In this document: one piece after another, positions 28,723 through 48,661 of the stretch
Numbering within the stretch: the stretch's first letter is position 1
How the letters are laid out: each line of letters starts with the position of its first letter
Assembly (NCBI GenBank): GCA_000002445.1
Contig: CP000067.1
Location: forward strand, 1,024,001 to 1,088,000
Direction of reading: 5' to 3'
Length of the DNA stretch: 64,000 nt
Source of the DNA: Trypanosoma brucei
Taxonomy: Eukaryota
Position numbers and translations under genes: made by a program
The notes under the pieces: model-generated
Database searches by the model: none
What the model saw: only the letters and a program-made list of their open reading frames with translations
What the model was told of the DNA's origin: nothing

Positions 28723-28762
28723 AGAGAGAGAGAGAGAGAAAAGGTGTGTGTGTGTGTGTGTG
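28723..28762. repeat. Compound (AG)n-(GT)n dinucleotide repeat
   Basis: Directly visible as agagagagagagagaga aaag gtgtgtgtgtgtgtgtgtg, inside the long low-complexity spacer. Confidence 0.9.
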
Positions 28763-30473
28763 CGGGAAGTGAAAAAAAAAATGAAATAAGAAAAAGAAAA
28801 CGGAACAAAAACAAAACAAAACGAAATATAACAATGAGCCAAAATGACAACAACAACAAAGAGAAGAACAAGCGCCTGTACTGAGCTGACGATGCACTCT
28901 TTTTTTTTTTTTTGTTGTTGTCACTTACTAAAAAAAACATTGACAGAAATGATAAGGGATAGGATGATGTTCTCACACCCCCGTTCTATCGGTAGTTGTA
29001 ATAAAAATAATAATGATTATGATAATAATAAAGATTACTATCGTTAAAGAACAAGAATAAATCGGATAACTGCATTTGTGCCCACATATATATTTACTTT
29101 TTTTTTTTAAAATTTCGTTTCTCCTCTATGCGTACAAGAATGTGCAGGCGCGTGGGGTCCATACATCAAGTGCGCTAAAAGGAGTATACGTTGCAGAAGC
29201 AAATTAGTAACAGTTTGAATATATAAATAAATAAACAAATAAATAAATATGTACAGAAATACAAAAATATATTGCTTCTCTTGTTCTTGTCTGTTATTAT
29301 ATTTTTCCTTCACACACCGGAAGACACGAAGGAAATGCAACACGTATGTATGGGAAAGAAATAATAAGACGCGCACTTTGGAAGCAACACGGCAAAGCGG
29401 GAGTTGCGAGCCAAACAACAACAACAAAAACAATGACAAAGCAAACAGAAGGGTGGGGGGGGGGAAATAGGAGCACCGAGAGCAAAACGAATCCTAAAAT
29501 AAACGAAAGTTGAAGCAACAAACAGACAAAAAGAAAAAAAAAACAAACGAAAAACAAAAAAGGCAAACACAACAACCGGAAGAATAATAAGATGAATGCA
29601 AACAAAATGGCAAATCCACGGCATCACCATATTTGAGACGGGGTCCGGTGGTTTTCTTTTTTATTTAAAATAATGCATTTTAAAGAAAAAGAAATAAAAT
29701 CTAAAACAAAAAATGGTTCCCTGTCATTTAATGAACGCAATTACCTAACATATTTTTATTCGTCTATCGCCCACTCGTCTTTATTGTCTCTGTTTTACAC
29801 GGCCTCTGCATCTCCGTAAGTTATACATGTTTTAAGGTTTATATAAATAAATGACAAAATATATAAATACTAAAACAATGCACTTAAGAGGTGTCGAGAG
29901 GGTTTATAAGCATACGCGTGTATGTGAGAAGTAAACGACAAACCGTGGCTTGAAAACCTTTTTTCTTCACGTTTTCTTCCCCCTCTCTAGAAAATGAATT
30001 CTGTTCCTTCGATTTTTCCCACCCCCCCAAATCGAGCTCCTCATCAAAATAACACACACACACAAAAAAAAAACAGACAAAACAAAACACGAACAAGGAC
30101 GCGCGCCCACTCCAACTGAAATATTTTCCCTTTCCCTTCTTTTATTTTTTATTTTTCTCCCTTCCCCTCACCTTCTGTGAGCAGAATGCGACTTACTTCG
30201 GTACAACTAAAAAGAGAGATGAGGTTGCAGAACAGGGAGATAAATAACTCCTTCCCCCACCTCCAAAGCAACAAAAGACGAGAAAACGGGAGGAAAACAA
30301 CAACAACAACAACAAAAAAGAGGACAGCTGCAAACACTCACACTCACTCATATATATAGACACACACACAAACATACATATACATATACCGACGAAAAAG
30401 AAAAAGAAAGAGCAAACGAAACACAATAAAGAAAGAACAACAACAGCAACAACAAAGGAAGTGACTGATACAT

Positions 30474-34258: not shown

Positions 34259-35788
34259 CCATTTCAGAATTTGTACCAACACTCCAAGTGCCGCCGGTTT
34301 GCGTACCGTATGCCGCTGAGAGTTACCTGCGCACGACTGTCCTGTCGTCACACAAAGATTTGGAGAAAAGAACAGCGGGTAAAGAGGAGTCGGCATCGCT
34401 AGTGTTTCCGTGCAAGGCAAAAGAAAAAAAAACGGGAAAGAAAACAACAACAAGCAAACACAAAAGAAGGGAAAACGTCATGCGACCGCAAACCGCCAAG
34501 CGGAAAGGGGGACTCCGCACGACGGTTAAATGAATTAATTATCAGCGGTGTTCGCGCAATTCATTAAATTATTGAAAAGTGGGGATTCGTGCAACCTGTC
34601 ATTTTTGTTTTTTGTGACGCGTAGTTTGTCACTCAACAAGTAATATGACATATTTTTGTGTGTGCCATGTGACTTTCCTTGAAACTACGAAGGGGAAGAA
34701 GGGTTCAGAATTCTCAATTTGTGTAAATAAATGAACTAATCAGAGGAAAAAAAAAGGGGAAACAGGGAAGAGATAATAATAATAAAAGAACCGCCACAAT
34801 TCCGTGGCTTAAAGCTGAGCAGGTGACAGACATATGCGAGGGTTATGCAGTGATAGAAAAAAAAATAGCAGTCCGCAGTGGGAGCGCACACCTGGTCAGA
34901 AAAAAAAGTAAAATAAAGAAATAAAAAGAAAATTAGCCCTTTCCGAATTTCTCAACGCCCACTCAAAGTTGTGGAGTGTACTGGGCAAAAATAAAATAAA
35001 AGACAAAAAGTAGATAAATACAACAACAAGCACACCAATAAATAGGAGGGAGAGCAAAAGAAATCAGAAAAAAAATTAGGGAAAAACATTGAGGAGGAAA
35101 ATGACGGTGACGAGTGGGGGAATATGAAACAAAGAGAATATATATATATATATATATAGGAATGACACGCATATTTTTTTTTTTTCATTTTCCCTTTTGA
35201 CACTCCACTCAAATCATTCGCTCTTTTCGTCCCCTCACCCGATCGCCATCATTAACCAAACTTTGATATCGCAGGCTGTGAAATTGCTCAAGACCGGACA
35301 AAACGAGGGAAAATAAAACAAAAAAAAATAGAAAGTTGAGAAAGGTGTTGACACCACACATTATATTAAATACAAAAAAAACAATGAACGATGCTCATCA
35401 CAGTGGTCAGGATACCTGCCAGTGGTGCACGATGGAAAGAAGTCCATGCGAAGGCCTTCCTCTACTTTTTTCCCTCTTTCGAAACGCATTATTACTCATT
35501 TAAAAGACATTAACAACAATAACAACAACAAAATAATTACAAAGATATTATTTTTTAAAGTTAAAAAGAAACTAGGGTAGGGTAGAGAGGAAAACGAAAC
35601 AAAACAAGCATAAGAAAGGTGATAGCATACAGTTGTGACCACTTTACCTTAAATAGAAATTTACTTTCTCTTTATATCTTGTTACACCCAGGGGCTTAGT
35701 GGGAAATAAGCACTTTCTCAGCTCTTGTCAGCGCCTCAAACTTAAGAATTGAGTCCGCCGCATGCTGGCACTTACGTTTAGTTTATGT

Positions 35789-37159
35789 TCATCCCCTGAC
35801 GGTATCCAAAATGGTGGAGCCGGTGCCGAACACAATAAGAAACACACCGCACAGCAGCACCACATAAGTCGTAATGTAATATAAGGGCCCAACTTTCTGC
35901 CATGTGAAGCCCCCTGAGTACATAATCAACAACGCGGGGAAGACGAAACCCAGTGAACCACCACACACAGATCCGGCAATACCAAACACGGTGGTGATCT
36001 TCGGGATGAATATACTCAAAAGCAAAACAAGGAACGACAGTGTAATGACTGACACGCAATGCTTCCAAAAGGGTAGAGAATCCGCAGTCTTCCCAACGAC
36101 GTCATACAATGCATTACGACACGCCATAGCAACTAGGGCATAGGATACGCATAGTTTGATAACGACGCCAATCATACCAACCATTACAGCCGGCTCCTTT
36201 ACGGGGTCGTACATAAGCAAAATAGAACTGGTTGCGGTCTTACCAAAGTCCATGTAACCGAAAAAGGCAGTGATTATGTACATTATACAGCAAAGGGTAT
36301 TGGCAATGATGGCCGCAATAACAAACTTACGTACTGAACGATCCTTCATGTCAATATAAACTTCGTACGCTGTAATCTGCGATATGAATGCGAACATAAA
36401 TACTCCCATTCCCTCAATGGCCTGGAATCCGCTGTTGAATAGGATGATTTCGGCATCTTCGCTCTTGGTCACACTAACATTCTTTATATTCTCCGACAAG
36501 CCATTCATGCACGAGTGCACAACGATCACAATGACAAAATACACCATGAAGGTAACGGCAAAAGTGGAGACGTACCGAAGGGAGTCGATGTGACGCGGAA
36601 TCGTCAGTGGAAGCATAAAACATGCCCAAACCACCGCCATGAGAAGACGATTACCTGATTTTTCCTTCAGGAAGTCCGGCGCATTTGTGCCTTTCAAAAT
36701 GGCAGACAAAATATCTCCCACTGAAATCACGTAGGCAACACAACCACTAAAACCGAGTAGCGCTCGAATACCAGCAAGAACATACGCAGCCCCGCGGCCG
36801 AGAAGTGCGCGAGTTGCCCTCTCGAAGGTGGGGGCTCCTGAGCGGTCGGCTGCGACTGAGAGGTTGTGCATCGTGAAAACCGTTACGGAAGAGATGAAAA
36901 TGAGGTAAAACATTCCCATGATAAGGCCGGTACTGTTGGCCGCCGGAGGCATCCCGAAGATTCCCGCACCGATTGTTGTTGACGCCATGTTAAAAGCACT
37001 GGCCGCAATGCCACCCGGAGGCAAAACAGTGGCGACGCACAAACTCACCTTCGTAAAGAATGTGTTTCGCCCCTTCTTCACGTTATCTTCGGTCTGCACC
37101 GGTTCATTGGAGAGGTTGTTTGGCGTTTGCACTTCTTGTTGTTGCTTGGAGTTGCTCAT
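35789..37159 (-). CDS. Amino acid transporter, tandem array copy 1 (456 aa)
   Basis: The track ORF opens at a GTG 102 codons upstream. I placed the start at MSNSKQQQ because a polypyrimidine tract and an AG lie immediately upstream, the length then matches the paralogs, and the N-terminus aligns with the diverged 471-aa copy. The coding sequence is identical to copy 2. Confidence 0.8.
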   Translation of the reverse strand: MSNSKQQQEVQTPNNLSNEPVQTEDNVKKGRNTFFTKVSLCVATVLPPGGIAASAFNMASTTIGAGIFGMPPAANSTGLIMGMFYLIFISSVTVFTMHNLSVAADRSGAPTFERATRALLGRGAAYVLAGIRALLGFSGCVAYVISVGDILSAILKGTNAPDFLKEKSGNRLLMAVVWACFMLPLTIPRHIDSLRYVSTFAVTFMVYFVIVIVVHSCMNGLSENIKNVSVTKSEDAEIILFNSGFQAIEGMGVFMFAFISQITAYEVYIDMKDRSVRKFVIAAIIANTLCCIMYIITAFFGYMDFGKTATSSILLMYDPVKEPAVMVGMIGVVIKLCVSYALVAMACRNALYDVVGKTADSLPFWKHCVSVITLSFLVLLLSIFIPKITTVFGIAGSVCGGSLGFVFPALLIMYSGGFTWQKVGPLYYITTYVVLLCGVFLIVFGTGSTILDTVRG

Positions 37160-37217
37160 TGCGTCTTGCAGTCGATTAGCACTTTTAGGGACTTCTTTTA
37201 CCCACAGAGTTTCGGGA

Positions 37218-37250
37218 ACAAAAGGATGAAAGAGAAAGAGCATGAGGAAG
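37218..37250 (-). promoter_or_regulatory. Polypyrimidine tract plus AG upstream of AAT copy 1, a candidate trans-splice acceptor region (repeated in units 2 and 3)
   Basis: The minus strand reads cctcatgctctttctctttcatccttttgttccc, then gaaactctgtgggtaaaagaag, and then the ATG about 60 nt downstream. This is the kinetoplastid polyY/AG architecture. I have no mapping data. Confidence 0.4.
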
Positions 37251-38208
37251 TGATGTGCAAGGAAAGTTAGATATGCACAAGTTGGTGCGTACCATGTCTG
37301 AAAGTTTATTGAAGAAGATGCAAGCACACACCTGGAGAGACGCAAATGACGTTCGCCTCCCTTCGTTTTGTGCTTGAGCTGTGCAGCAGTTGCCCCGATG
37401 ATTGTAATGCACACGAGGTGATTTCCATACCAACGTTGAATAGAGTTGTTTGAGGGCAAATTCACTTGCCACTGGAGTTACAAACGCATAAAGTCGTTTC
37501 GGCATGCTAGTGATTGTTTGCTCACGTTTCTTGTCGATTGCGCCACTTCTTCAGTACCATACGACTTCATGCGAGATGAAGAGCGGGGAAGACTTCTGCA
37601 AGACAAAACTTAAAATGTTGCAGTGCTTTGAAGCAGAGTGGACATACACATAACTTTGCTCCTTGATACCACAGCTAGGAACGCAGCGCCCCAAAGTTAT
37701 GAATTACATATGAACTTGATGCACTTGATGGAAGCGGCACCGCGTGAATGCCACTACTGAAAGTGTATGAAAGGAAAGAAAAGACAATAAGAATATTAGG
37801 GGAAAGAACAAAGAAGGGGTTAATGTTTCGCAATTACCATTTAACCTAGTGGTATACCTGAGATAATAAAATCAGCGGTGCACCGAAAGAAACGCTGCAC
37901 AGCCTGAGCACCGAGGGAGGAAGTTGAGGTAAAAAGAAAAAAAAAGAAACCATAAAACAAAAAAGAAACCGAAAGGGACCCTCGAATGGTATCGCAGAAG
38001 CAGCATTTGGAGATGAGTGGACGCATGGAGTCGGCAAACTTGACGGTTTTACCACCGCTTTATTCAACGGCAATGGAGCCACCGCCTCCAGCCGCATCGC
38101 ATAATACGGCCAAATCACTGCAATTCGCACCTCCGCTTGTTGTATTTTCTAATCGGCGGACGTAACGAGGGAAAAACGATGGGACCCCAACGAGATGACA
38201 ACGACAAA

Positions 38209-41200
38209 AGAAAAAAAAGTAAAATAAAGAAATAAAAAGAAAATTAGCCCTTTCCGAATTTCTCAACGCCCACTCAAAGTTGTGGAGTGTACTGGGCAAA
38301 AATAAAATAAAAGACAAAAAGTAGATAAATACAACAACAAGCACACCAATAAATAGGAGGGAGAGTAAAAGAAATCAGAAAAAAAATTAGGGAAAAACAT
38401 TGAGGAGGAAAATGACGGTGACGGGTGGGGGAATATGAAACAAAGAGAATATATATATATATATATAGGAATGACACGCATATTTTTTTTTTTTCATTTT
38501 CCCTTTTGACACTCCACTCAAATCATTCGCTCTTTTCGTCCCCTCACCCGATCGCCATCATTAACCAAACTTTGATATCGCAGGCTGTGAAATTGCTCAA
38601 GACCGGACAAAACGAGGGAAAATAAAACAAAAAAAATAGAAAGTTGAGAAAGGTGTTGACACCACACATTATATTAAATACAAAAAAAAACAATGAACGA
38701 TGCTCATCACAGTGGTCAGGATACCTGCCAGTGGTGCACGATGGAAAGAAGTCCATGCGAAGGCCTTCCTCTACTTTTTTCCCTCTTTCGAAACGCATTA
38801 TTACTCATTTAAAAGACATTAACAACAATAACAACAACAAAATAATTACAAAGATATTATTTTTTAAAGTTAAAAAGAAACTAGGGTAGGGTAGAGAGGA
38901 AAACGAAACAAAACAAGCATAAGAAAGGTGATAGCATACAGTTGTGACCACTTTACCTTAAATAGAAATTTACTTTCTCTTTATATCTTGTTACACCCAG
39001 GGGCTTAGTGGGAAATAAGCACTTTCTCAGCTCTTGTCAGCGCCTCAAACTTAAGAATTGAGTCCGCCGCATGCTGGCACTTACGTTTAGTTTATGTTCA
39101 TCCCCTGACGGTATCCAAAATGGTGGAGCCGGTGCCGAACACAATAAGAAACACACCGCACAGCAGCACCACATAAGTCGTAATGTAATATAAGGGCCCA
39201 ACTTTCTGCCATGTGAAGCCCCCTGAGTACATAATCAACAACGCGGGGAAGACGAAACCCAGTGAACCACCACACACAGATCCGGCAATACCAAACACGG
39301 TGGTGATCTTCGGGATGAATATACTCAAAAGCAAAACAAGGAACGACAGTGTAATGACTGACACGCAATGCTTCCAAAAGGGTAGAGAATCCGCAGTCTT
39401 CCCAACGACGTCATACAATGCATTACGACACGCCATAGCAACTAGGGCATAGGATACGCATAGTTTGATAACGACGCCAATCATACCAACCATTACAGCC
39501 GGCTCCTTTACGGGGTCGTACATAAGCAAAATAGAACTGGTTGCGGTCTTACCAAAGTCCATGTAACCGAAAAAGGCAGTGATTATGTACATTATACAGC
39601 AAAGGGTATTGGCAATGATGGCCGCAATAACAAACTTACGTACTGAACGATCCTTCATGTCAATATAAACTTCGTACGCTGTAATCTGCGATATGAATGC
39701 GAACATAAATACTCCCATTCCCTCAATGGCCTGGAATCCGCTGTTGAATAGGATGATTTCGGCATCTTCGCTCTTGGTCACACTAACATTCTTTATATTC
39801 TCCGACAAGCCATTCATGCACGAGTGCACAACGATCACAATGACAAAATACACCATGAAGGTAACGGCAAAAGTGGAGACGTACCGAAGGGAGTCGATGT
39901 GACGCGGAATCGTCAGTGGAAGCATAAAACATGCCCAAACCACCGCCATGAGAAGACGATTACCTGATTTTTCCTTCAGGAAGTCCGGCGCATTTGTGCC
40001 TTTCAAAATGGCAGACAAAATATCTCCCACTGAAATCACGTAGGCAACACAACCACTAAAACCGAGTAGCGCTCGAATACCAGCAAGAACATACGCAGCC
40101 CCGCGGCCGAGAAGTGCGCGAGTTGCCCTCTCGAAGGTGGGGGCTCCTGAGCGGTCGGCTGCGACTGAGAGGTTGTGCATCGTGAAAACCGTTACGGAAG
40201 AGATGAAAATGAGGTAAAACATTCCCATGATAAGGCCGGTACTGTTGGCCGCCGGAGGCATCCCGAAGATTCCCGCACCGATTGTTGTTGACGCCATGTT
40301 AAAAGCACTGGCCGCAATGCCACCCGGAGGCAAAACAGTGGCGACGCACAAACTCACCTTCGTAAAGAATGTGTTTCGCCCCTTCTTCACGTTATCTTCG
40401 GTCTGCACCGGTTCATTGGAGAGGTTGTTTGGCGTTTGCACTTCTTGTTGTTGCTTGGAGTTGCTCATTGCGTCTTGCAGTCGATTAGCACTTTTAGGGA
40501 CTTCTTTTACCCACAGAGTTTCGGGAACAAAAGGATGAAAGAGAAAGAGCATGAGGAAGTGATGTGCAAGGAAAGTTAGATATGCACAAGTTGGTGCGTA
40601 CCATGTCTGAAAGTTTATTGAAGAAGATGCAAGCACACACCTGGAGAGACGCAAATGACGTTCGCCTCCCTTCGTTTTGTGCTTGAGCTGTGCAGCAGTT
40701 GCCCCGATGATTGTAATGCACACGAGGTGATTTCCATACCAACGTTGAATAGAGTTGTTTGAGGGCAAATTCACTTGCCACTGGAGTTACAAACGCATAA
40801 AGTCGTTTCGGCATGCTAGTGATTGTTTGCTCACGTTTCTTGTCGATTGCGCCACTTCTTCAGTACCATACGACTTCATGCGAGATGAAGAGCGGGGAAG
40901 ACTTCTGCAAGACAAAACTTAAAATGTTGCAGTGCTTTGAAGCAGAGTGGACATACACATAACTTTGCTCCTTGATACCACAGCTAGGAACGCAGCGCCC
41001 CAAAGTTATGAATTACATATGAACTTGATGCACTTGATGGAAGCGGCACCGCGTGAATGCCACTACTGAAAGTGTATGAAAGGAAAGAAAAGACAATAAG
41101 AATATTAGGGGAAAGAACAAAGAAGGGGTTAATGTTTCGCAATTACCATTTAACCTAGTGGTATACCTGAGATAATAAAATCAGCGGTGCACCGAAAGAA

Positions 41201-41517
41201 ACGCTGCACAGCCTGAGCACCGAGGGAGGAAGTTGAGGTAAAAAGAAAAAAAAAGAAACCATAAAACAAAAAAGAAACCGAAAGGGACCCTCGAATGGTA
41301 TCGCAGAAGCAGCATTTGGAGATGAGTGGACGCATGGAGTCGGCAAACTTGACGGTTTTACCACCGCTTTATTCAACGGCAATGGAGCCACCGCCTCCAG
41401 CCGCATCGCATAATACGGCCAAATCACTGCAATTCGCACCTCCGCTTGTTGTATTTTCTAATCGGCGGACGTAACGAGGGAAAAACGATGGGACCCCAAC
41501 GAGATGACAACGACAAA
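38209..41517 (-). repeat. Tandem repeat unit 2 (about 3309 bp) carrying AAT copy 2
   Basis: It is near-identical to unit 1. Its (TA)n is (TA)9, and it has one spacer SNP against unit 1 (gacgagtggggg against gacgggtggggg). Confidence 0.85.
39098..40468 (-). CDS. Amino acid transporter, tandem array copy 2 (456 aa)
   Basis: The translation is identical to copy 1. I verified the ATG at 40468-40466 directly (plus-strand cat). Confidence 0.8.
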   Translation of the reverse strand: MSNSKQQQEVQTPNNLSNEPVQTEDNVKKGRNTFFTKVSLCVATVLPPGGIAASAFNMASTTIGAGIFGMPPAANSTGLIMGMFYLIFISSVTVFTMHNLSVAADRSGAPTFERATRALLGRGAAYVLAGIRALLGFSGCVAYVISVGDILSAILKGTNAPDFLKEKSGNRLLMAVVWACFMLPLTIPRHIDSLRYVSTFAVTFMVYFVIVIVVHSCMNGLSENIKNVSVTKSEDAEIILFNSGFQAIEGMGVFMFAFISQITAYEVYIDMKDRSVRKFVIAAIIANTLCCIMYIITAFFGYMDFGKTATSSILLMYDPVKEPAVMVGMIGVVIKLCVSYALVAMACRNALYDVVGKTADSLPFWKHCVSVITLSFLVLLLSIFIPKITTVFGIAGSVCGGSLGFVFPALLIMYSGGFTWQKVGPLYYITTYVVLLCGVFLIVFGTGSTILDTVRG

Positions 41518-44500
41518 AGAAAAAAAAGTAAAATAAAGAAATAAAAAGAAAATTAGCCCTTTCCGAATTTCTCAACGCCCACTCAAAGTTGTGGAGTGTA
41601 CTGGGCAAAAATAAAATAAAAGACAAAAAGTAGATAAATACAACAACAAGCACACCAATAAATAGGAGGGAGAGTAAAAGAAATCAGAAAAAAAATTAGG
41701 GAAAAACATTGAGGAGGAAAATGACGGTGACGGGTGGGGGAATATGAAACAAAGAGAATATATATATATATATATATATATAGGAATGACACGCATATTT
41801 TTTTTTTTTCATTTTCCCTTTTGACACTCCACTCAAATCATTCGCTCTTTTCGTCCCCTCACCCGATCGCCATCATTAACCAAACTTTGATATCGCAGGC
41901 TGTGAAATTGCTCAAGACCGGACAAAACGAGGGAAAATAAAACAAAAAAAATAGAAAGTTGAGAAAGGTGTTGACACCACACATTATATTAAATACAAAA
42001 AAAACAATGAACGATGCTCATCACAGTGGTCAGGATACCTGCCAGTGGTGCACGATGGAAAGAAGTCCATGCGAAGGCCTTCCTCTACTTTTTTCCCTCT
42101 TTCGAAACGCATTATTACTCATTTAAAAGACATTAACAACAATAACAACAACAAAATAATTACAAAGATATTATTTTTTAAAGTTAAAAAGAAACTAGGG
42201 TAGGGTAGAGAGGAAAACGAAACAAAACAAGCATAAGAAAGGTGATAGCATACAGTTGTGACCACTTTACCTTAAATAGAAATTTACTTTCTCTTTATAT
42301 CTTGTTACACCCAGGGGCTTAGTGGGAAATAAGCACTTTCTCAGCTCTTGTCAGCGCCTCAAACTTAAGAATTGAGTCCGCCGCATGCTGGCACTTACGT
42401 TTAGTTTATGTTCATCCCCTGACGGTATCCAAAATGGTGGAGCCGGTGCCGAACACAATAAGAAACACACCGCACAGCAGCACCACATAAGTCGTAATGT
42501 AATATAAGGGCCCAACTTTCTGCCATGTGAAGCCCCCTGAGTACATAATCAACAACGCGGGGAAGACGAAACCCAGTGAACCACCACACACAGATCCGGC
42601 AATACCAAACACGGTGGTGATCTTCGGGATGAATATACTCAAAAGCAAAACAAGGAACGACAGTGTAATGACTGACACGCAATGCTTCCAAAAGGGTAGA
42701 GAATCCGCAGTCTTCCCAACGACGTCATACAATGCATTACGACACGCCATAGCAACTAGGGCATAGGATACGCATAGTTTGATAACGACGCCAATCATAC
42801 CAACCATTACAGCCGGCTCCTTTACGGGGTCGTACATAAGCAAAATAGAACTGGTTGCGGTCTTACCAAAGTCCATGTAACCGAAAAAGGCAGTGATTAT
42901 GTACATTATACAGCAAAGGGTATTGGCAATGATGGCCGCAATAACAAACTTACGTACTGAACGATCCTTCATGTCAATATAAACTTCGTACGCTGTAATC
43001 TGCGATATGAATGCGAACATAAATACTCCCATTCCCTCAATGGCCTGGAATCCGCTGTTGAATAGGATGATTTCGGCATCTTCGCTCTTGGTCACACTAA
43101 CATTCTTTATATTCTCCGACAAGCCATTCATGCACGAGTGCACAACGATCACAATGACAAAATACACCATGAAGGTAACGGCAAAAGTGGAGACGTACCG
43201 AAGGGAGTCGATGTGACGCGGAATCGTCAGTGGAAGCATAAAACATGCCCAAACCACCGCCATGAGAAGACGATTACCTGATTTTTCCTTCAGGAAGTCC
43301 GGCGCATTTGTGCCTTTCAAAATGGCAGACAAAATATCTCCCACTGAAATCACGTAGGCAACACAACCACTAAAACCGAGTAGCGCTCGAATACCAGCAA
43401 GAACATACGCAGCCCCGCGGCCGAGAAGTGCGCGAGTTGCCCTCTCGAAGGTGGGGGCTCCTGAGCGGTCGGCTGCGACTGAGAGGTTGTGCATCGTGAA
43501 AACCGTTACGGAAGAGATGAAAATGAGGTAAAACATTCCCATGATAAGGCCGGTACTGTTGGCCACCGGAGGCATCCCGAAGATTCCCGCACCGATTGTT
43601 GTTGACGCCATGTTAAAAGCACTGGCCGCAATGCCACCCGGAGGCAAAACAGTGGCGACGCACAAACTCACCTTCGTAAAGAATGTGTTTCGCCCCTTCT
43701 TCACGTTATCTTCGGTCTGCACCGGTTCATTGGAGAGGTTGTTTGGCGTTTGCACTTCTTGTTGTTGCTTGGAGTTGCTCATTGCGTCTTGCAGTCGATT
43801 AGCACTTTTAGGGACTTCTTTTACCCACAGAGTTTCGGGAACAAAAGGATGAAAGAGAAAGAGCATGAGGAAGTGATGTGCAAGGAAAGTTAGATATGCA
43901 CAAGTTGGTGCGTACCATGTCTGAAAGTTTATTGAAGAAGATGCAAGCACACACCTGGAGAGACGCAAATGACGTTCGCCTCCCTTCGTTTTGTGCTTGA
44001 GCTGTGCAGCAGTTGCCCCGATGATTGTAATGCACACGAGGTGATTTCCATACCAACGTTGAATAGAGTTGTTTGAGGGCAAATTCACTTGCCACTGGAG
44101 TTACAAACGCATAAAGTCGTTTCGGCATGCTAGTGATTGTTTGCTCACGTTTCTTGTCGATTGCGCCACTTCTTCAGTACCATACGACTTCATGCGAGAT
44201 GAAGAGCGGGGAAGACTTCTGCAAGACAAAACTTAAAATGTTGCAGTGCTTTGAAGCAGAGTGGACATACACATAACTTTGCTCCTTGATACCACAGCTA
44301 GGAACGCAGCGCCCCAAAGTTATGAATTACATATGAACTTGATGCACTTGATGGAAGCGGCACCGCGTGAATGCCACTACTGAAAGTGTATGAAAGGAAA
44401 GAAAAGACAATAAGAATATTAGGGGAAAGAACAAAGAAGGGGTTAATGTTTCGCAATTACCATTTAACCTAGTGGTATACCTGAGATAATAAAATCAGCG

Positions 44501-44841
44501 GTGCACCGAAAGAAATGCTGCACAGCCTGAGCACCGAGGGAGGAAGTTGAGGTAAAAAGAAAAAAAAAGAAACCATAAAACAAAAAAGAAACCGAAAGGG
44601 ACCCTCGAATGGTATCGCAGAAGCAGCATTTGGAGATGAGTGGACGCATGGAGTCGGCAAACTTGACGGTTTTACCACCGCTTTATTCAACGGCAATGGA
44701 GCCACCGCCTCCAGCCGCATCGCATAATACGGCCAAATCACTGCAATTCGCACCTCCGCTTGTTGTATTTTCTAATCGGCGGACGTAACGAGGGAAAAAC
44801 GATGGGACCCCAACGAGATGACAACGACAAAAGAAAAAAAA
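41518..44841 (-). repeat. Tandem repeat unit 3 (about 3323 bp) carrying AAT copy 3
   Basis: Its (TA)n is (TA)12. It has one coding SNP (Ala to Val) and two or more spacer SNPs near 44470-44760. Homology to the other units ends at about 44841, where the sequence diverges into unique sequence upstream of the 471-aa paralog. Confidence 0.85.
42412..43782 (-). CDS. Amino acid transporter, tandem array copy 3 (456 aa), one substitution relative to copies 1 and 2
   Basis: It is identical to copies 1 and 2 except MPPVANSTG against MPPAANSTG (Ala to Val). The same nucleotide change shows in the antisense track ORF (LLATGG against LLAAGG). Confidence 0.8.
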   Translation of the reverse strand: MSNSKQQQEVQTPNNLSNEPVQTEDNVKKGRNTFFTKVSLCVATVLPPGGIAASAFNMASTTIGAGIFGMPPVANSTGLIMGMFYLIFISSVTVFTMHNLSVAADRSGAPTFERATRALLGRGAAYVLAGIRALLGFSGCVAYVISVGDILSAILKGTNAPDFLKEKSGNRLLMAVVWACFMLPLTIPRHIDSLRYVSTFAVTFMVYFVIVIVVHSCMNGLSENIKNVSVTKSEDAEIILFNSGFQAIEGMGVFMFAFISQITAYEVYIDMKDRSVRKFVIAAIIANTLCCIMYIITAFFGYMDFGKTATSSILLMYDPVKEPAVMVGMIGVVIKLCVSYALVAMACRNALYDVVGKTADSLPFWKHCVSVITLSFLVLLLSIFIPKITTVFGIAGSVCGGSLGFVFPALLIMYSGGFTWQKVGPLYYITTYVVLLCGVFLIVFGTGSTILDTVRG

Positions 44842-45243
44842 GAAAACAAAAGAATTTGAGCAGGAATTTTTTTGGGAAAAAGAGATGAAATTTGCTTCAC
44901 ATGTTGTAAAGATCAAGTACTTTAATCGTTCCACAATGCAGTGGCGAAGTAAAAGATGAAAGAAGACCTACCACCAAACCAATGAAAAAAGAACCGAAAG
45001 TGGTCCGCTCATTCGCTACCACTGCGGCAGCAAAAAAAGAGGGAAAATGAGTGGAATGCGAAAGGGTGGAGACAACTGTTGCCGAAAGAGTGAAGACACG
45101 TTGGTGGCGGTTAACTATCCTCCGCTGCGTTCAATGGTAATAGGCAGATAAGTAACAAAACATCTGATTTATTTATTTACTTATTTACTGACTCTCCTCC
45201 TTTACCTCCTTTTTTTCTTCAATAGGAACTTCAAAGCCGCCGG

Positions 45244-46659
45244 TTAACCAGTTATAGTGCCCCATATACTTGCACCCGTGCCGAAAACAATGCCTACAAC
45301 ACCACAAATTAGTAAAACATATGTCGCAAGATAATGTAAAGACCCAACTTTCTGCCATGTGAAGCCCCCTGAGTACATAATCAACAACGCGGGGAAGACG
45401 AAACCCAGTGAACCACCGGTAATCGAGCCAGAAAAACCAAGGACGGTATTAACATTGGGAATGAATAGACCCAAAAGCAGTGCAGCAGTGGACAGCACGA
45501 TGACTGACACGCAATGCTTCCAAAAGGGTAGAGAATCCACATTCTTCTCTGCAATGCTGTACAATGCATTACGACACGCCATAGCGAGCAGCGCATACGA
45601 AGCAACCAGCTTTACAAGCACGCCAATCATACCAACCATTACAGCCGGCTCCTTTACGGGGTCGTACATAAGCAAAATAGAACCGGAAACAGCACGACCA
45701 AAGTCCATGTAACCGAAAAAGGCAGTGATTATGTACAGCGCAGTACACAGGGACATGGCAATGATGGCCGCAATAACAAACTTACGTACTGAACGATCCT
45801 TCATGTCAATATAAACTTCATACGCCGTGTCCTGACAAGTGTAGGAAAACATAAATACTCCCAACCCTTCAATGGCTTCATTCCCGCTATTAAAGAGAAT
45901 GATGGCAGCTGTATCACTCTTTCCAACACTAACATTCTTTATATTCTCCGACAAGCCATTCATGCACGAGTGCACAACGATCACAATGACAAAATACACC
46001 ATGAAGGTAACGGCAAAAGTGGAGACGTACCGAAGGGAGTCGACGTGACGCGGGATCGCCAGTGGAAGCATAAAACATGCCCAAACCACCGCCGTGAGAA
46101 GACGATTACCTGATTTTTCCTTCAGGAAGTCCGGCGCATTTGTGCCTTTCAAAATGGCAGACAAAATATCTCCCACTGAAATTACGTAGGCAACACAACT
46201 CGTAAAACCATCAAGCGCTCGAAGAACAGCAATGGCATAAGCAACTCTACGACCCATGAGGACAAATGTTACGCTTTCATATGTGGGTGCTTTGGAGCGG
46301 TCCGCTGCGAGGGCGAGATTACGCATGGAATAGATAGTCATGCAACTAATAAAAAAGAGGTAAAACATTCCCATGATAAGTCCACTGCTGCCGGCCGATG
46401 ACGGCAAGCCAAAGATGCCAGCGCCCAGCGTTGTCGCTGCGATGTTGAAGGCACTGGCGATTGTACCTCCGGGAGGGATGAATGCAGCAAATTGTGTGCT
46501 CTGCTCACCAGGAGGTTGCTTCCCTGATTGGGGTTCGTTTGATTGAACATTTTGACTGGTTTCACAGTTTCCAACGTTATTATTGACAACGGTGTGACCG
46601 ATCGGCTCGAAACAATTGTGAGGTACGGTGTTGCTTGTATTTTCTCTGGCAATACACAT
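45244..46659 (-). CDS. Amino acid transporter, diverged mosaic paralog at the upstream end of the array (471 aa)
   Basis: The ATG start is verified. The N-terminal 65 aa diverge from the array copies. Long internal blocks are identical to them: CVAYVISVGDILSAILKGTNAPDFLKEKSGNRLL, RYVSTFAVTFMVYFVIVIVVHSCMNGLSENIKNVSV, ILLMYDPVKEPAVMVGMIGV and GGSLGFVFPALLIMYSGGFTWQKVG. Diverged blocks are interspersed between these. Confidence 0.8.
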   Translation of the reverse strand: MCIARENTSNTVPHNCFEPIGHTVVNNNVGNCETSQNVQSNEPQSGKQPPGEQSTQFAAFIPPGGTIASAFNIAATTLGAGIFGLPSSAGSSGLIMGMFYLFFISCMTIYSMRNLALAADRSKAPTYESVTFVLMGRRVAYAIAVLRALDGFTSCVAYVISVGDILSAILKGTNAPDFLKEKSGNRLLTAVVWACFMLPLAIPRHVDSLRYVSTFAVTFMVYFVIVIVVHSCMNGLSENIKNVSVGKSDTAAIILFNSGNEAIEGLGVFMFSYTCQDTAYEVYIDMKDRSVRKFVIAAIIAMSLCTALYIITAFFGYMDFGRAVSGSILLMYDPVKEPAVMVGMIGVLVKLVASYALLAMACRNALYSIAEKNVDSLPFWKHCVSVIVLSTAALLLGLFIPNVNTVLGFSGSITGGSLGFVFPALLIMYSGGFTWQKVGSLHYLATYVLLICGVVGIVFGTGASIWGTITG

Positions 46660-47095
46660 TAGATCTTACAGCTAGTAGCGTTTTCCCCTTCCCCACTGTT
46701 TAACTTACCTAGTTGCCTGCGACTCGTCTTTTAGGTACCGTCTAAGGCAATAATTTGAAGGAAAATGCAAACGGAATAAAAACAAATACCGAAAGAAGGA
46801 AGGGGACGGGAAGTGAGGGTTGGTGTGGAAAGAGTTGGTCGGCAGCGATGCAACCACCTCGTTATGAGTAGGGGGATGAAGGAAGCATATGTCAAAGCGT
46901 GTAGCTCATTGCGTCGAAGGATGCCTATACGGCAGAAAGGGTGTATTCCAAGTGACCACGGCATCCCATCCACGCTATTGAACCCTTTAATTGAGTACCA
47001 TGGTTTCACCCCAAAGATTCCTCGCTTAATCGTCCGTTTAGTCTCATTCATATTTAGATTTGCCGTTTGTGGTGCAGCATCCCCATTCAAGGAAC

Positions 47096-48661
47096 TTACC
47101 GAAAGGCGACAATACAAATGTTTTCTCCTGTTACACTCGACTCGGCGTACTGACAAAGATAGGTCCGCCGGAATCCACTTTGTTTTAAGTATTCAAGCCG
47201 GAAAGCGTCAATTACTCTTTTACAACACATACCTGTGAGGCGTCGCTCAGCATCCACAGCTTCTCCACTCACTGCCCAAGAAGACATGGAAGTTATTGCG
47301 GCGAACTCTCTCTCACTAAACGTATGGTTGGTACCAGGAATCGCGATTCGGCCCCTGCGACACTCGCTCGGGGATAACAAGGCATTTATATGCTTCAATT
47401 CACAGCGTTGGTGACAGCATGTAGCGAAGACAACGGCACACACAGAGGCAAACCCTTCCGTGTTAAGATTAGGTGCTGTAACGCACGAGAGAGCAAAGTC
47501 TGTGCATGCTCCACAAAGGTGTTTGCCGACGGCCACCCACTGTTCTTCCACCGACACTGACTGCTTGATGGCGTTTGTGCATTGATCGGATGTACTGCTT
47601 GTTTCCTCTCTGGACCGTTTACATGTGGACGCACCACATAGTGCTTTTGCCAAATCAAGGTCCTTTATATTGATGCGCAATCGAACGAGCGGAAGGCGAC
47701 TGTTTCGAACACACGCATCGGCTTTGCGCCGGAAGTTATCCATATCTACAACTACAATACGCGGAAAGCCTCCATTGTCAGCACTAAGGGCCTCATTCAC
47801 GGCTGTCCGCCCTTCCTTTCTCTCCTGAAATCCGGGATGACTATGACAATACCGGATAGACCCTGAAAGCAAAGCATCCTGCAACGAAACAGCGAGACCA
47901 GCTTTGCCTGCACCTAATTCAAGGAAACCGGCTATTCTAACATATGTGTTTCCAAGATTCCCCCGCCCCTCGGCGTAACCGCGGATGACCGTCTGCACGC
48001 AACGAAGCAAAGCCCTGTGCTGCGGCCCATGTTTGTTGGAAATTCGTCGCGTTGACCCTGTGCTGCTGTTATCTTGAAAGGGCTCCTGACATTCCTCCGC
48101 AAGAAGGACAATCCGTGGCTGGATAACATTAAAGTAGCACTCCCTTACGCGTGTGATGAGGTCCTCCAAAACCACCGTGTCCATATGATGATGTGTGAAG
48201 CGTTCCTTTTCCGATTCCTGGGAAGTGACACAGTAGGCCACGCCTTTGCACGCATGTAGGTCCTTGCTATAGTATGGGAGCTTGTCAACAACAAAGCGTA
48301 GATCAGGACATACCTTTACGTGCTTTTGCAATTTATCGGCATAAACAGTGTGGTTTGGGTTGATGGGACACGGGACCCGCTGGAGGGCGCGTGAAGGTCC
48401 CGTAGAAACGCCCTCACCAGCAGTTCTCCCCGGGCCAACGGCTGAGCCCGAGCTGCTCAAAACGACAGCAGGTGTTGTTTCCCCCGTTGTGGTGCCGTTC
48501 ACATCGTGAGTGGGACAATAGCGCCCACCGGCTCGTTTGGCCGTGCGACAGAACCGGCGCTTGTGCGAGAGGTAAAAATCGCATGCCACAGCGTCAGGGT
48601 TATGAGTGGGGCGCATTTGTCCCTTTCCGGTCCCTTCGCCTTCCTGAGTTGTGGCATCCAT
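47096..48661 (-). CDS. TRM13: TRM13-like tRNA 2'-O-methyltransferase carrying CCCH and CHHC zinc fingers
   Basis: The 521-aa ORF has a verified ATG start. The N-terminus has CDFYLSHKRRFCRTAKRAGGRYCPTH (a TRM13-type CCCH finger), followed by PCPINPNHTVYADKLQKHVKVCP (a U11-48K-like CHHC finger). After these comes a methyltransferase-like body that includes a Gly-rich LELGAGKAGL motif. I assigned the family from domain order by recall and have not searched. Confidence 0.6.
   Translation of the reverse strand: MDATTQEGEGTGKGQMRPTHNPDAVACDFYLSHKRRFCRTAKRAGGRYCPTHDVNGTTTGETTPAVVLSSSGSAVGPGRTAGEGVSTGPSRALQRVPCPINPNHTVYADKLQKHVKVCPDLRFVVDKLPYYSKDLHACKGVAYCVTSQESEKERFTHHHMDTVVLEDLITRVRECYFNVIQPRIVLLAEECQEPFQDNSSTGSTRRISNKHGPQHRALLRCVQTVIRGYAEGRGNLGNTYVRIAGFLELGAGKAGLAVSLQDALLSGSIRYCHSHPGFQERKEGRTAVNEALSADNGGFPRIVVVDMDNFRRKADACVRNSRLPLVRLRINIKDLDLAKALCGASTCKRSREETSSTSDQCTNAIKQSVSVEEQWVAVGKHLCGACTDFALSCVTAPNLNTEGFASVCAVVFATCCHQRCELKHINALLSPSECRRGRIAIPGTNHTFSEREFAAITSMSSWAVSGEAVDAERRLTGMCCKRVIDAFRLEYLKQSGFRRTYLCQYAESSVTGENICIVAFR

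What the first reader, a model, noticed from the sequence alone, without database searches (positions are those of the whole stretch)
45244..46659. Upstream AAT paralog is a mosaic of blocks identical to the array copies and blocks that are strongly diverged
The 471-aa gene has long stretches that match the array copies perfectly at the amino-acid level. The antisense track ORFs suggest they match at nucleotide level too, for example the C-terminal coding region that encodes the shared antisense MKPPEYIINNAGKTKPSEPP. A unique N-terminal 65 aa and diverged internal segments interrupt these stretches. A patchwork like this is the signature of segmental gene conversion between paralogs. It would give a transporter with altered termini and loops, and possibly altered substrate specificity, on a conserved core.
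Basis: seen in the sequence. Interest (0 to 1): 0.55.

Follow-up and report, generated by a model that had tools for sequence, protein, structure and literature searches.

The report
Gene-conversion mosaic in trypanosome ornithine transporter
The gene is the Trypanosoma brucei ornithine/histidine transporter TbAAT2-4, and short stretches of its coding sequence have repeatedly been overwritten by copies from the neighbouring three-gene transporter array, a real but well-known kind of paralogue gene conversion in this parasite.

Summary
The window is T. brucei TREU927 chromosome 4. ORF 45244-46659(-) is Tb927.4.4020, TbAAT2-4, a characterised ornithine/histidine transporter. Against array copy 35789-37159 its 1242-nt gap-free core is 79% identical, but the 259 differences are clumped. 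There are ten perfect runs of 24-118 nt, where shuffling gives a longest run of about 26 nt (maximum 59). Inside the runs Ks = 0, while the same codons have Ks about 1.1-1.2 between the chromosome 4 and 8 paralogues. Outside the runs Ks is about 2.5. UTRs and flanks are unrelated.

With the chromosome 8 pair TbAAT10-1/10-2 as reference, 83 informative sites group genes by type and 80 by locus, alternating in blocks. Orthologues in T. b. gambiense and T. equiperdum IVM-t1 carry extra array-type tracts, and TbAAT10-1 shows these are derived. Conversion there therefore ran array→TbAAT2-4 and continued after the strains diverged.

The diverged blocks are mostly transmembrane helices (TM1-3, 6, 8, 9, 11), not only termini and loops. 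Segmental gene conversion is supported. Partial conversion in T. brucei AAT arrays is already known (Jackson 2007), although no tracts were recorded for this array. This is a new example of a known kind, of modest interest.

The parts
45244..46659 (-). CDS of the mosaic gene U = Tb927.4.4020 = TbAAT2-4 (471 aa, Aa_trans/AAAP transporter)
   Evidence: ORF. Exact protein match to XP_844552.1 of T. b. brucei TREU927. The published TbAAT2-4 ORF primers match 46633-46659 and 45244-45269 exactly. Pfam PF01490, E=3e-47.
46465..46659 (-). N-terminal tail and pre-TM1 helix (residues 1-65). Not alignable with the array copies, but type-1-specific and colinear with TbAAT10-1.
   Evidence: pLDDT is below 50 for residues 1-47.
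46183..46464 (-). Diverged, type-specific segment covering TM1a/b, TM2, IL1 and most of TM3. It contains one 24-nt identical run (46357-46380).
   Evidence: Nucleotide identity to the array is 0.55-0.83. Of the informative sites counted over the whole elements TM1a/b, TM2, IL1 and TM3 (residues 66-171, 46147-46464), 30 are type-supporting and 10 locus-supporting.
45926..46182 (-). Largest homogenised block: perfect runs of 88, 34 and 118 nt, with 4 differences in 257 nt. It covers the end of TM3, EL2, TM4, IL2, TM5 and the start of EL3. In T. b. gambiense the whole 257 nt is identical to that strain's own array copy.
   Evidence: All 30 informative sites in alignment columns 600-799 are locus-type.
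45820..45925 (-). Diverged, type-specific segment covering the EL3 hairpin and TM6a/b. A 20-41 nt piece (45864-45883) is array-type in the Tbg and IVM-t1 orthologues.
45756..45819 (-). 64-nt perfect run (end of TM6b, IL3, start of TM7)
45697..45737 (-). 41-nt perfect run (TM7)
45620..45683 (-). 64-nt perfect run (EL4, start of TM8)
45500..45585 (-). Perfect runs of 26 nt and 39 nt separated by a diverged 21-nt patch (45539-45559). That patch is array-type in T. b. gambiense.
45343..45417 (-). 75-nt perfect run (second half of TM10 and IL5).
45247..45342 (-). Diverged, type-specific C-terminal segment (TM11)
   Evidence: Nucleotide identity 0.61, with 14 of 32 residues differing
44851..45243 (-). 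U-specific 3' flank/UTR, unrelated to the array's 3' flank
   Evidence: It is conserved at over 99% in the Tbg and IVM-t1 orthologous loci.
46660..47095 (-). U-specific 5' flank, unrelated to the array's 5' flank
34900..44850 (-). Three-unit tandem array (period 3309/3314 nt), the inferred donor of the conversion tracts. Boundaries are approximate.
42412..43782 (-). Array copy C3 (456 aa from MSNSK). It has one nucleotide difference from C1 and C2, at CDS nt 218 (Ala to Val).
39098..40468 (-). Array copy C2
35789..37159 (-). Array copy C1

Best explanation
The AAT2 locus holds two old transporter types in tandem. Type 1 is TbAAT2-4 (U), a single copy with its own UTRs. Type 2 is the 3-copy array. 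The two types already existed before the T. brucei-T. congolense split, and before the T. brucei-specific chromosome 4/8 block duplication that produced TbAAT10-1 (type 1) and TbAAT10-2 (type 2). Because the genes lie 1.5-10 kb apart in direct orientation, homologous-recombination repair repeatedly copies short stretches (tens to a few hundred nt) from one paralogue into the other without crossover, i.e. non-reciprocal gene conversion. Where direction can be read, it runs from the multi-copy array into the single-copy gene. This produces a coding sequence that alternates between segments identical to the array and anciently diverged type-1 segments, while UTRs and flanks remain distinct. The process is ongoing, because strains differ in which tracts they carry.

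Which steps are shown: the mosaic, the Ks contrast, the alternating phylogeny, the strain differences, and the polarity of the strain-specific tracts.

Which steps are inferred: first, that the type-specific segments (TM1-3, TM6, mid-TM8, TM9-10a, TM11) persist because conversion there is removed by selection for the ornithine/histidine-transport phenotype, and/or because high divergence blocks heteroduplex formation; second, that the molecular route is synthesis-dependent strand annealing (SDSA)-type repair.
For: (1) Runs of 24-118 identical nt in a 79%-identical alignment, p<1e-4.
(2) The 185 codons inside the runs have Ks(U,C)=0 and Ka=0. The same codons have Ks 1.1-1.2 between the chromosome 4 and chromosome 8 paralogues, so silent sites there are free to change. 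The other 219 codons have Ks about 2.5 and Ka 0.31.
(3) Four-taxon informative sites give 83 for (U+AAT10-1 | C+AAT10-2), 80 for (U+C | AAT10-1+AAT10-2) and 10 for the third grouping. They are arranged in 32 runs against 82±6 expected, z=-7.9.
(4) Flanks and UTRs of U and of the array unit are unrelated, so there was no crossover or whole-unit duplication.
(5) Strain-specific tracts. T. b. gambiense U has array-type sequence at alignment columns 545-699, 860-879 and 1184-1204. IVM-t1 U has it at 860-879 and 988-1263 (59 sites). At these sites TbAAT10-1 carries the TREU927-U state, so the array-type state is derived.
(6) Strain-private substitutions are shared by U and by that strain's own array copy: window 46063 is G/G in Tbg, and 45701 is A/A in IVM-t1.
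(7) The same pattern occurs independently in the chromosome 8 pair (perfect runs of 141 and 74 nt) and, at protein level, in the T. congolense pair (15 type sites, 29 locus sites, 1 other).
(8) Jackson 2007 found 'unambiguous' concerted evolution for AAT2Tb, and partial gene conversion in three other T. brucei AAT arrays (PMC1810246).
Against: For the blocks that are fixed in all strains, the donor cannot be polarised with the sequences I could fetch (one search is ambiguous), so some tracts may have gone U→array.

The IVM-t1 assembly is mainly short-read (ABySS k=68, Pilon-polished; PMC6395869). The OVI 'orthologue' is probably an assembly chimera. The strain evidence therefore rests chiefly on Tbg DAL972 plus one tract shared by Tbg and IVM-t1.

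Selection as the reason for the retained type-specific segments is not tested. No conversion event has been observed experimentally.
Confidence: 0.9

Rival explanations
1. There was no exchange. The identical blocks are simply the most strongly constrained parts of the gene (purifying selection on protein, codon usage or an RNA element), and the rest diverged normally after one duplication.
For: The identical blocks do include well-conserved family motifs. TM5 and the surrounding region are conserved across trypanosomatid homologues (consensus).
Against: Ks=0 over 126 synonymous sites between U and C, but Ks 1.1-1.2 for the same codons between the chromosome 4 and 8 paralogues. Synonymous differences are clumped. 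Informative sites in these blocks group by locus, not by type. Block extents differ between strains.
Confidence: 0.02
2. Assembly artefact: reads from the three array copies were merged into the consensus of the single-copy gene, producing a false chimera.
For: Arrays are collapsed or mis-joined in other assemblies. The OVI contig joins the U head to an array tail and array 3' flank, and ends 649 bp later. Only one array copy is present in the Tbg and IVM-t1 assemblies.
Against: The same core mosaic appears in three independently produced assemblies (TREU927, DAL972, IVM-t1). There are ten alternations at a 20-120 nt scale, with more than 20% divergence in between, which is not what read mis-placement produces. 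Macedo et al. amplified and sequenced the ORF from strain 427 with end primers that match this ORF, and compared it with the TREU927 and Lister 427 genome sequences (PMC5602898).
Confidence: 0.03
3. One or two unequal crossovers between a type-1 and a type-2 gene made a hybrid gene once, and there has been no recurrent conversion.
For: Unequal crossover certainly operates here: three identical array units, and copy number that apparently differs between assemblies.
Against: At least ten switches of affinity lie within 1.2 kb while both flanks stay U-specific. Strains differ in their tracts, and private variants are shared with each strain's own array copy. A crossover would also swap the downstream flank, which is seen only in the doubtful OVI contig.
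Confidence: 0.04
4. Conversion is real, but the position of the blocks is neutral. Tracts persist wherever residual identity is high enough to start heteroduplex, and diverged stretches are simply refractory. Selection on substrate specificity plays no role.
For: The homogenised regions are also the ones most conserved in the wider family. The chromosome 8 and T. congolense pairs homogenise overlapping regions, as expected if homology alone guides the process.
Against: Conversion can cross highly diverged sequence: the IVM-t1 tract replaces 59 differing sites in about 276 nt, and the Tbg tracts replace 9-10 sites in about 20 nt. Divergence is therefore not an absolute barrier. Type-specific segments have Ka/Ks of about 0.13 between U and TbAAT10-1 and include TM1, TM3, TM6 and TM8. 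From general knowledge of LeuT-fold transporters, these helices form the substrate site.
Confidence: 0.4

Closest known systems
Partial (allelic or intra-array) gene conversion and concerted evolution in T. brucei tandem gene arrays, including AAT4, AAT7 and AAT9 (Jackson 2007, PMC1810246 and PMC1855330)
   Same: Same organism, same gene family and same mechanism. Short tracts (19-327 bp in that study) are copied non-reciprocally between tandem paralogues. AAT2Tb (array Tb26, chromosome 4 1059789-1070659, which is window 35789-46659) was itself scored as evolving in concert.
   Different: No conversion event was recorded for this array in either paper (Table 3 of PMC1810246; Table S1 of PMC1855330). 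The likely reason is that three identical copies plus one divergent copy give the triplet methods nothing to compare. That work treated AAT2/AAT10 as a 'monomorphic' locus. Here the chromosome 8 and T. congolense comparisons show two old types, with conversion confined to parts of the CDS, and tracts that differ between strains.
TbAAT10-1/TbAAT10-2 pair on chromosome 8 (paralogous duplicon)
   Same: Syntenic arrangement: PDE ... type-1 gene, type-2 gene, DnaJ. It has its own perfect blocks of 141 and 74 nt in overlapping positions. TbAAT10-1 is the closest relative of TbAAT2-4 and also transports ornithine (PMC5602898).
   Different: It has one type-2 copy instead of three, different block boundaries, and flanks with no detectable similarity to chromosome 4.
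Segmental gene conversion that builds mosaic VSG genes in T. brucei (from my own knowledge, not tested here)
   Same: Short-patch, homology-guided, non-reciprocal copying between diverged paralogues produces mosaic coding sequences in the same organism.
   Different: VSG mosaics arise during infection under immune selection, from silent archive donors into an expression site. Here the process is germline-like evolution of two expressed housekeeping transporters within a polycistronic unit.
Classical interlocus gene conversion between tandem paralogues in other eukaryotes, e.g. human fetal globin genes, RHD/RHCE, CYP21A2/CYP21A1P (from my own knowledge)
   Same: Identical tracts are embedded in diverged paralogues, exchange is limited to coding or conserved parts, flanks stay distinct, and tracts are polymorphic in populations.
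   Different: Different organisms and genes. Nothing is mechanistically distinctive apart from the polycistronic context.

Membership tests
Non-allelic (interlocus, intra-array) gene conversion mosaic | Tracts of (near-)identity much longer than chance, embedded in diverged sequence | tested here: met
   Runs of 118, 88, 75, 64 and 64 nt against a null maximum of 59. Expected number of runs of at least 118 nt is 2.7e-10.
Non-allelic (interlocus, intra-array) gene conversion mosaic | Silent-site divergence collapses inside the tracts but not outside, which excludes selection on the protein | tested here: met
   Ks is 0 inside and about 2.5 outside. The same codons have Ks 1.1-1.2 against the chromosome 8 paralogues. 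The synonymous-site runs test also supports this.
Non-allelic (interlocus, intra-array) gene conversion mosaic | Phylogenetic incongruence between adjacent segments when a reference pair is added | tested here: met
   83 type sites, 80 locus sites and 10 other informative sites, in 32 alternating runs, z=-7.9.
Non-allelic (interlocus, intra-array) gene conversion mosaic | Non-reciprocal transfer: the donor is unchanged, the recipient changed, and flanks are not exchanged | tested here: met
   For the strain-specific tracts, array copies are the same in all strains, the U orthologues differ, and TbAAT10-1 polarises the change as array→U. Flanks are distinct. For the blocks fixed in all strains the direction is inconclusive.
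Non-allelic (interlocus, intra-array) gene conversion mosaic | Formal GENECONV/RDP breakpoint tests on a multi-sequence alignment | not tested
   The programs are not available here. I used permutation tests of run lengths and of informative-site runs instead.
AAAP / Aa_trans (PF01490) amino-acid transporters, APC (LeuT-fold) superfamily | Sequence match to the family profile above the curated cut-off | tested here: met
   PF01490: 161.6 bits for U and 152.9 bits for the array copy, against a cut-off of 25.6. Profile hits to the solved structures of PAT1/SLC36A1 (E=3e-17) and SLC38A9.
AAAP / Aa_trans (PF01490) amino-acid transporters, APC (LeuT-fold) superfamily | 11-TM LeuT-type fold with broken TM1 and TM6 | tested here: met
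   AF2 model with pLDDT 84.3 and pTM 0.81, with helix breaks at residues 78-80 and in 264-275. Foldseek top hits are LAX3/AUX1, SLC38A9 and AdiC, with TM-scores 0.6-0.8.
TbAAT2-4 (Tb927.4.4020), ornithine/histidine transporter | Sequence identity with the characterised gene | tested here: met
   Exact match to XP_844552.1. Both published ORF primers match the ORF ends exactly. Coordinates match Jackson's array Tb26.
TbAAT2-4 (Tb927.4.4020), ornithine/histidine transporter | Transport of ornithine and histidine | not testable with these tools
   Taken from Macedo et al. 2017 (PMC5602898), measured for the Lister 427 allele in yeast and by RNAi.

The most novel reading that the evidence does not exclude
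The mosaic is maintained by a balance between two forces. The neighbouring array keeps overwriting TbAAT2-4, and different T. brucei subspecies carry different overwritten tracts, including parts of TM6-TM9. Selection preserves a fixed set of type-1 segments (TM1-3, TM6, mid-TM8, TM9-10a, TM11) that have resisted homogenisation in both duplicons and in T. congolense. If so, those conversion-resistant segments map the determinants of ornithine/histidine specificity. Strain-specific tracts could then cause natural variation in ornithine uptake, and hence in eflornithine and suramin sensitivity, between subspecies.
Probability: 0.3. Interest if true: 0.55.

Novelty: new member of a known kind. 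Interest (0 to 1): 0.36.

Why it matters
TbAAT2-4 is one of the two ornithine importers of bloodstream T. brucei, and it modulates sensitivity to eflornithine and suramin (PMC5602898). Three consequences follow from parts of its coding sequence being rewritten from a neighbouring array of unknown substrate, differently in different subspecies.
- Allele differences such as the 3% protein divergence between TREU927 and T. b. gambiense are conversion tracts rather than point mutations.
- Whole-gene phylogenies and rate tests of this family are misleading. This applies to the 'monomorphic AAT2/10' model and to the reported rate acceleration.
- The segments that never homogenise give a ready-made chimera map for locating specificity determinants.
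- RNAi, probe and short-read mapping designs should avoid the identical blocks.
As a phenomenon it is nevertheless a textbook process, already documented for this gene family in this species.

Tried and rejected
- Tandem Repeats Finder found nothing, because the 3.3-kb array period exceeds its 500-nt limit. The repeat finder gave the array register instead.
- There are no tRNAs in the window.
- T. congolense DNA for TCIL3000_10_13950 is not on record and 13960 was not looked up (the search result showed no contig for it). The cross-species test could only be done at protein level, and the fixed blocks could not be polarised.
- I tried to polarise the fixed blocks by asking whether the shared U/C sequence is nearer TbAAT10-1 or TbAAT10-2. 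The result was mixed by bin (14:4, then 6:14, and so on) and is confounded by lineage-specific change, so I left this open.
- blastn of the U and array flanks against the chromosome 8 locus found nothing at E<1e-5, so synteny rests on gene order only.
- The T. equiperdum OVI orthologue (P0072) looked like a dramatic conversion of the whole 3' half. Its 3' flank is the array's flank and the contig ends 649 bp later. I treated it as a probable assembly chimera, or possibly an unequal-crossover deletion, and did not use it as evidence.
- I considered a Pilon or de Bruijn artefact for the IVM-t1 tracts. This is unlikely: the right-hand breakpoint has less than 10 nt of flanking identity, and reads would differ by about 21% across the tract. 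It cannot be excluded.
- A literature search for 'TbAAT2' together with 'gene conversion' found no paper.
Full report
**Identity of the locus**

All ORFs of at least 200 aa in the window lie on the minus strand, as expected for a trypanosomatid polycistronic unit. The product of 45244-46659(-) is exactly XP_844552.1 of T. brucei brucei TREU927 chromosome 4.

The span from the stop codon of the last array copy to the start codon of this gene (35789-46659, 10,871 nt) has the same length as Jackson's array Tb26, 'amino acid transporter, chr 4, 4 copies, 1059789-1070659'. The published ORF primers for TbAAT2-4 (Tb427.04.4020) match 46633-46659 and 45244-45269 without mismatch. The gene, called U below, is therefore Tb927.4.4020, TbAAT2-4. 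It is a high-affinity ornithine/histidine transporter that affects eflornithine and suramin sensitivity (PMC5602898) and is more abundant in bloodstream forms (PMC2771046).

U is a PF01490 Aa_trans protein. An AlphaFold model (pLDDT 84) shows an 11-TM LeuT-type fold whose best structural matches are LAX3/AUX1, SLC38A9 and AdiC.

Downstream lie three array copies, C1 35789-37159, C2 39098-40468 and C3 42412-43782. They are identical except for one nucleotide in C3. They sit in a 3.31-kb repeat that runs from about 34900 to about 44850.

**The observation**

In a codon alignment of U against C1 the last 1242 nt align without gaps. They are 79.1% identical, with 259 differences. The differences are strongly clumped.
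- Ten perfect runs of 24-118 nt occur: 118, 88, 75, 64, 64, 41, 39, 34, 26 and 24.
- In 10,000 permutations of the same differences the longest run averaged 25.7 nt and never exceeded 59.
- The analytic expectation for a run of at least 118 nt is 2.7e-10.

The similarity is confined to the CDS. U's 5' flank (46660-47095) and 3' flank (44851-45243) are unrelated to the array unit. The same flanks are more than 99% conserved at the orthologous loci of other strains.

**Selection or exchange**

- Among 295 codons that encode the same degenerate amino acid in both genes, the 76 synonymous differences are clumped: 71 runs against 113.8±6.6 expected, and difference-free stretches of 39, 38 and 29 codons.
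- By Nei-Gojobori, the 185 codons inside perfect runs have Ks=0 and Ka=0 between U and C. The very same codons have Ks 1.1-1.2 between the chromosome 4 genes and their chromosome 8 paralogues, so silent sites there are not constrained.
- The remaining 219 codons have Ks about 2.5 (saturated) and Ka 0.31.

This rules out purifying selection as the cause of the identical blocks.

**Phylogenetic incongruence**

The syntenic chromosome 8 locus was fetched from T. b. gambiense as L004. Its gene order is PDE ... TbAAT10-1, TbAAT10-2, DnaJ. On chromosome 4 the order is PDE, ABC, hypothetical, TRM13, U, array, DnaJ.

Among four-taxon informative sites, 83 support (U+AAT10-1 | C+AAT10-2), 80 support (U+C | AAT10-1+AAT10-2) and only 10 support the third split. 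The first two classes alternate in long blocks, giving 32 runs against 82±6 expected, z=-7.9.
- Type-supporting sites fill TM1-TM3, EL3-TM6, TM8-TM10a and TM11.
- Locus-supporting sites fill EL2-TM5 and the other perfect runs.

So two gene types existed before the chromosome 4/8 duplication. Jackson showed that this duplication is specific to T. brucei (PMC2212663). Each locus has since homogenised parts of its own pair. The chromosome 8 pair has its own perfect runs of 141 and 74 nt in overlapping positions.

At protein level the adjacent T. congolense genes 10_13950 and 10_13960 give 15 type sites, 29 locus sites and 1 other. The central region is again entirely locus-type. The dimorphism therefore predates the T. 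brucei-T. congolense split, and homogenisation has happened in parallel.

**Ongoing conversion and its direction**

I fetched the orthologous loci from T. b. gambiense DAL972 (L001), T. equiperdum OVI (L002) and IVM-t1 (L003). The array copies are nearly invariant between strains, with Ks 0.013. The U orthologues differ much more, with Ks 0.048 and Ka 0.015. These differences are tracts in which one strain carries array-type sequence.
- Tbg: alignment columns 545-699 (which makes a 257-nt perfect block with its own array copy), 860-879 and 1184-1204.
- IVM-t1: 860-879, shared with Tbg, and 988-1263, covering 59 sites.

At these sites TbAAT10-1 carries the TREU927-U state, so the array-type state is derived and the direction is array→U.

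Two strain-private substitutions occur in both U and that strain's own array copy: window 46063 is G/G in Tbg only, and 45701 is A/A in IVM-t1 only. This is the signature of exchange after the strains diverged.

There are caveats.
- The OVI 'orthologue' joins the U head to an array tail and array 3' flank at a contig end. It is probably an assembly chimera, and I did not use it.
- IVM-t1 is mainly a short-read assembly.
- Both the Tbg and IVM-t1 assemblies contain a single array copy, which may be collapsed.
- For the blocks fixed in all strains, the donor could not be determined.

Mapping onto the model gives the following.
- Homogenised parts: end of TM3, EL2, TM4, IL2 and TM5 (0-2 residue differences per element), IL3, EL4, IL5, and parts of TM7, TM8 and TM10.
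- Diverged parts: the N-tail, TM1a/b (10 of 27 residues differ), TM2 (9 of 29), IL1, most of TM3, the EL3 hairpin, TM6a/b (8 of 26), mid-TM7, TM8 (7 of 32), TM9, the first half of TM10, and TM11 (14 of 32).

The picture of 'altered termini and loops on a conserved core' is therefore not accurate. The retained type-specific blocks include the helices that, in LeuT-fold transporters generally, line the substrate site (TM1, 3, 6 and 8; this is my own knowledge, not tested here).

The N-terminal ~60 residues are not unique either. They are colinear with TbAAT10-1 and T. congolense 13950, and all three proteins are 471 aa.

In the type-specific blocks, Ka/Ks between U and TbAAT10-1 is about 0.13. 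Both proteins transport ornithine, whereas no substrate was found for TbAAT10-2 (PMC5602898). This fits selection preserving type-1 segments, but it does not prove it. A neutral, homology-limited explanation remains viable (about 0.4). It is weakened by the fact that tracts can cross highly diverged sequence, as in the IVM-t1 tract.

**Comparison with what is known**

Jackson (2007) analysed exactly this array, as AAT2Tb or Tb26. He found mean Ks 0.34 and 'unambiguous evidence' of concerted evolution. He catalogued partial conversion tracts of 19-327 bp in AAT4, AAT7 and AAT9. He recorded no event for this array (Table S1) and modelled AAT2/AAT10 as monomorphic. With three identical copies and one divergent copy, triplet-based detectors have no third sequence to work with, which probably explains the omission. 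No paper in the searchable library combines 'TbAAT2' with 'gene conversion'.

Four details appear to be unreported:
- the tract map;
- the two-type history;
- the parallel mosaic on chromosome 8;
- the strain-specific array→U tracts in a functionally characterised, drug-relevant transporter.

The phenomenon itself is a standard one, already documented in this gene family and species.

**Verdict**

The structural gloss is corrected. This is a new member of a known kind, with interest about 0.36. It would rise to about 0.55 if the conversion-resistant segments prove to define ornithine/histidine specificity and if strain-specific tracts alter drug-relevant transport.

Noticed in passing
L004:6001-7416 and L004:9243-10658 (T. 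b. gambiense chr 8): The chromosome 8 paralogue pair TbAAT10-1/TbAAT10-2 is itself a mosaic. It has perfect runs of 141, 74, 37, 31, 28 and 25 nt that partly overlap the positions of the chromosome 4 blocks. Conversion has therefore acted in parallel in both duplicons.
   Followed up: partly
L002:10001-12065 (T. equiperdum OVI contig CZPT02001693.1): The annotated 'orthologue' has the U 5' flank and the first ~200 codons, then array-type sequence to the stop codon, followed by the array's 3' flank. The contig ends 649 bp later. It is either an assembly chimera formed through the 88-118-nt identical blocks, or a real unequal-crossover deletion.
   Followed up: partly
window 34900-44850 vs L001:11417-15829 and L003:11417-15819: TREU927 has three array units (3309/3314-nt period). 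The T. b. gambiense DAL972 and IVM-t1 assemblies show only one copy between U and the DnaJ gene. This is either real copy-number variation or a collapsed repeat.
   Followed up: no
window 37160-37465 (and 40469-40774, 43783-44088): The array ORFs extend upstream in frame, to 558 aa from a GTG codon. GenBank annotates 484 aa from an upstream ATG (MLFLFHPF..., P0004). Alignment with T. congolense 13960 and with the type-1 proteins favours the 456-aa MSNSK start. The true start codon and splice-acceptor site are unverified.
   Followed up: no
window 43565: This is the only difference among the three array CDSs: C→T at CDS nt 218 of copy C3, giving Ala→Val (PPAANS→PPVANS) near the end of TM1.
   Followed up: no
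window 26100-30470: A stretch of about 4.3 kb that is AT-rich (GC 0.33-0.34), with positive AT and GC skew and no ORF above 146 aa. It lies inside an otherwise gene-dense minus-strand unit. It could be an unusually long intergenic/UTR region or a degenerate element.
   Followed up: no
L003:8476-9564 vs window 47096-48661: The TRM13-like gene upstream of U is called as 362 aa in IVM-t1, against 521 aa in TREU927, Tbg and OVI. This is probably a frameshift or assembly error in the IVM-t1 draft.
   Followed up: no
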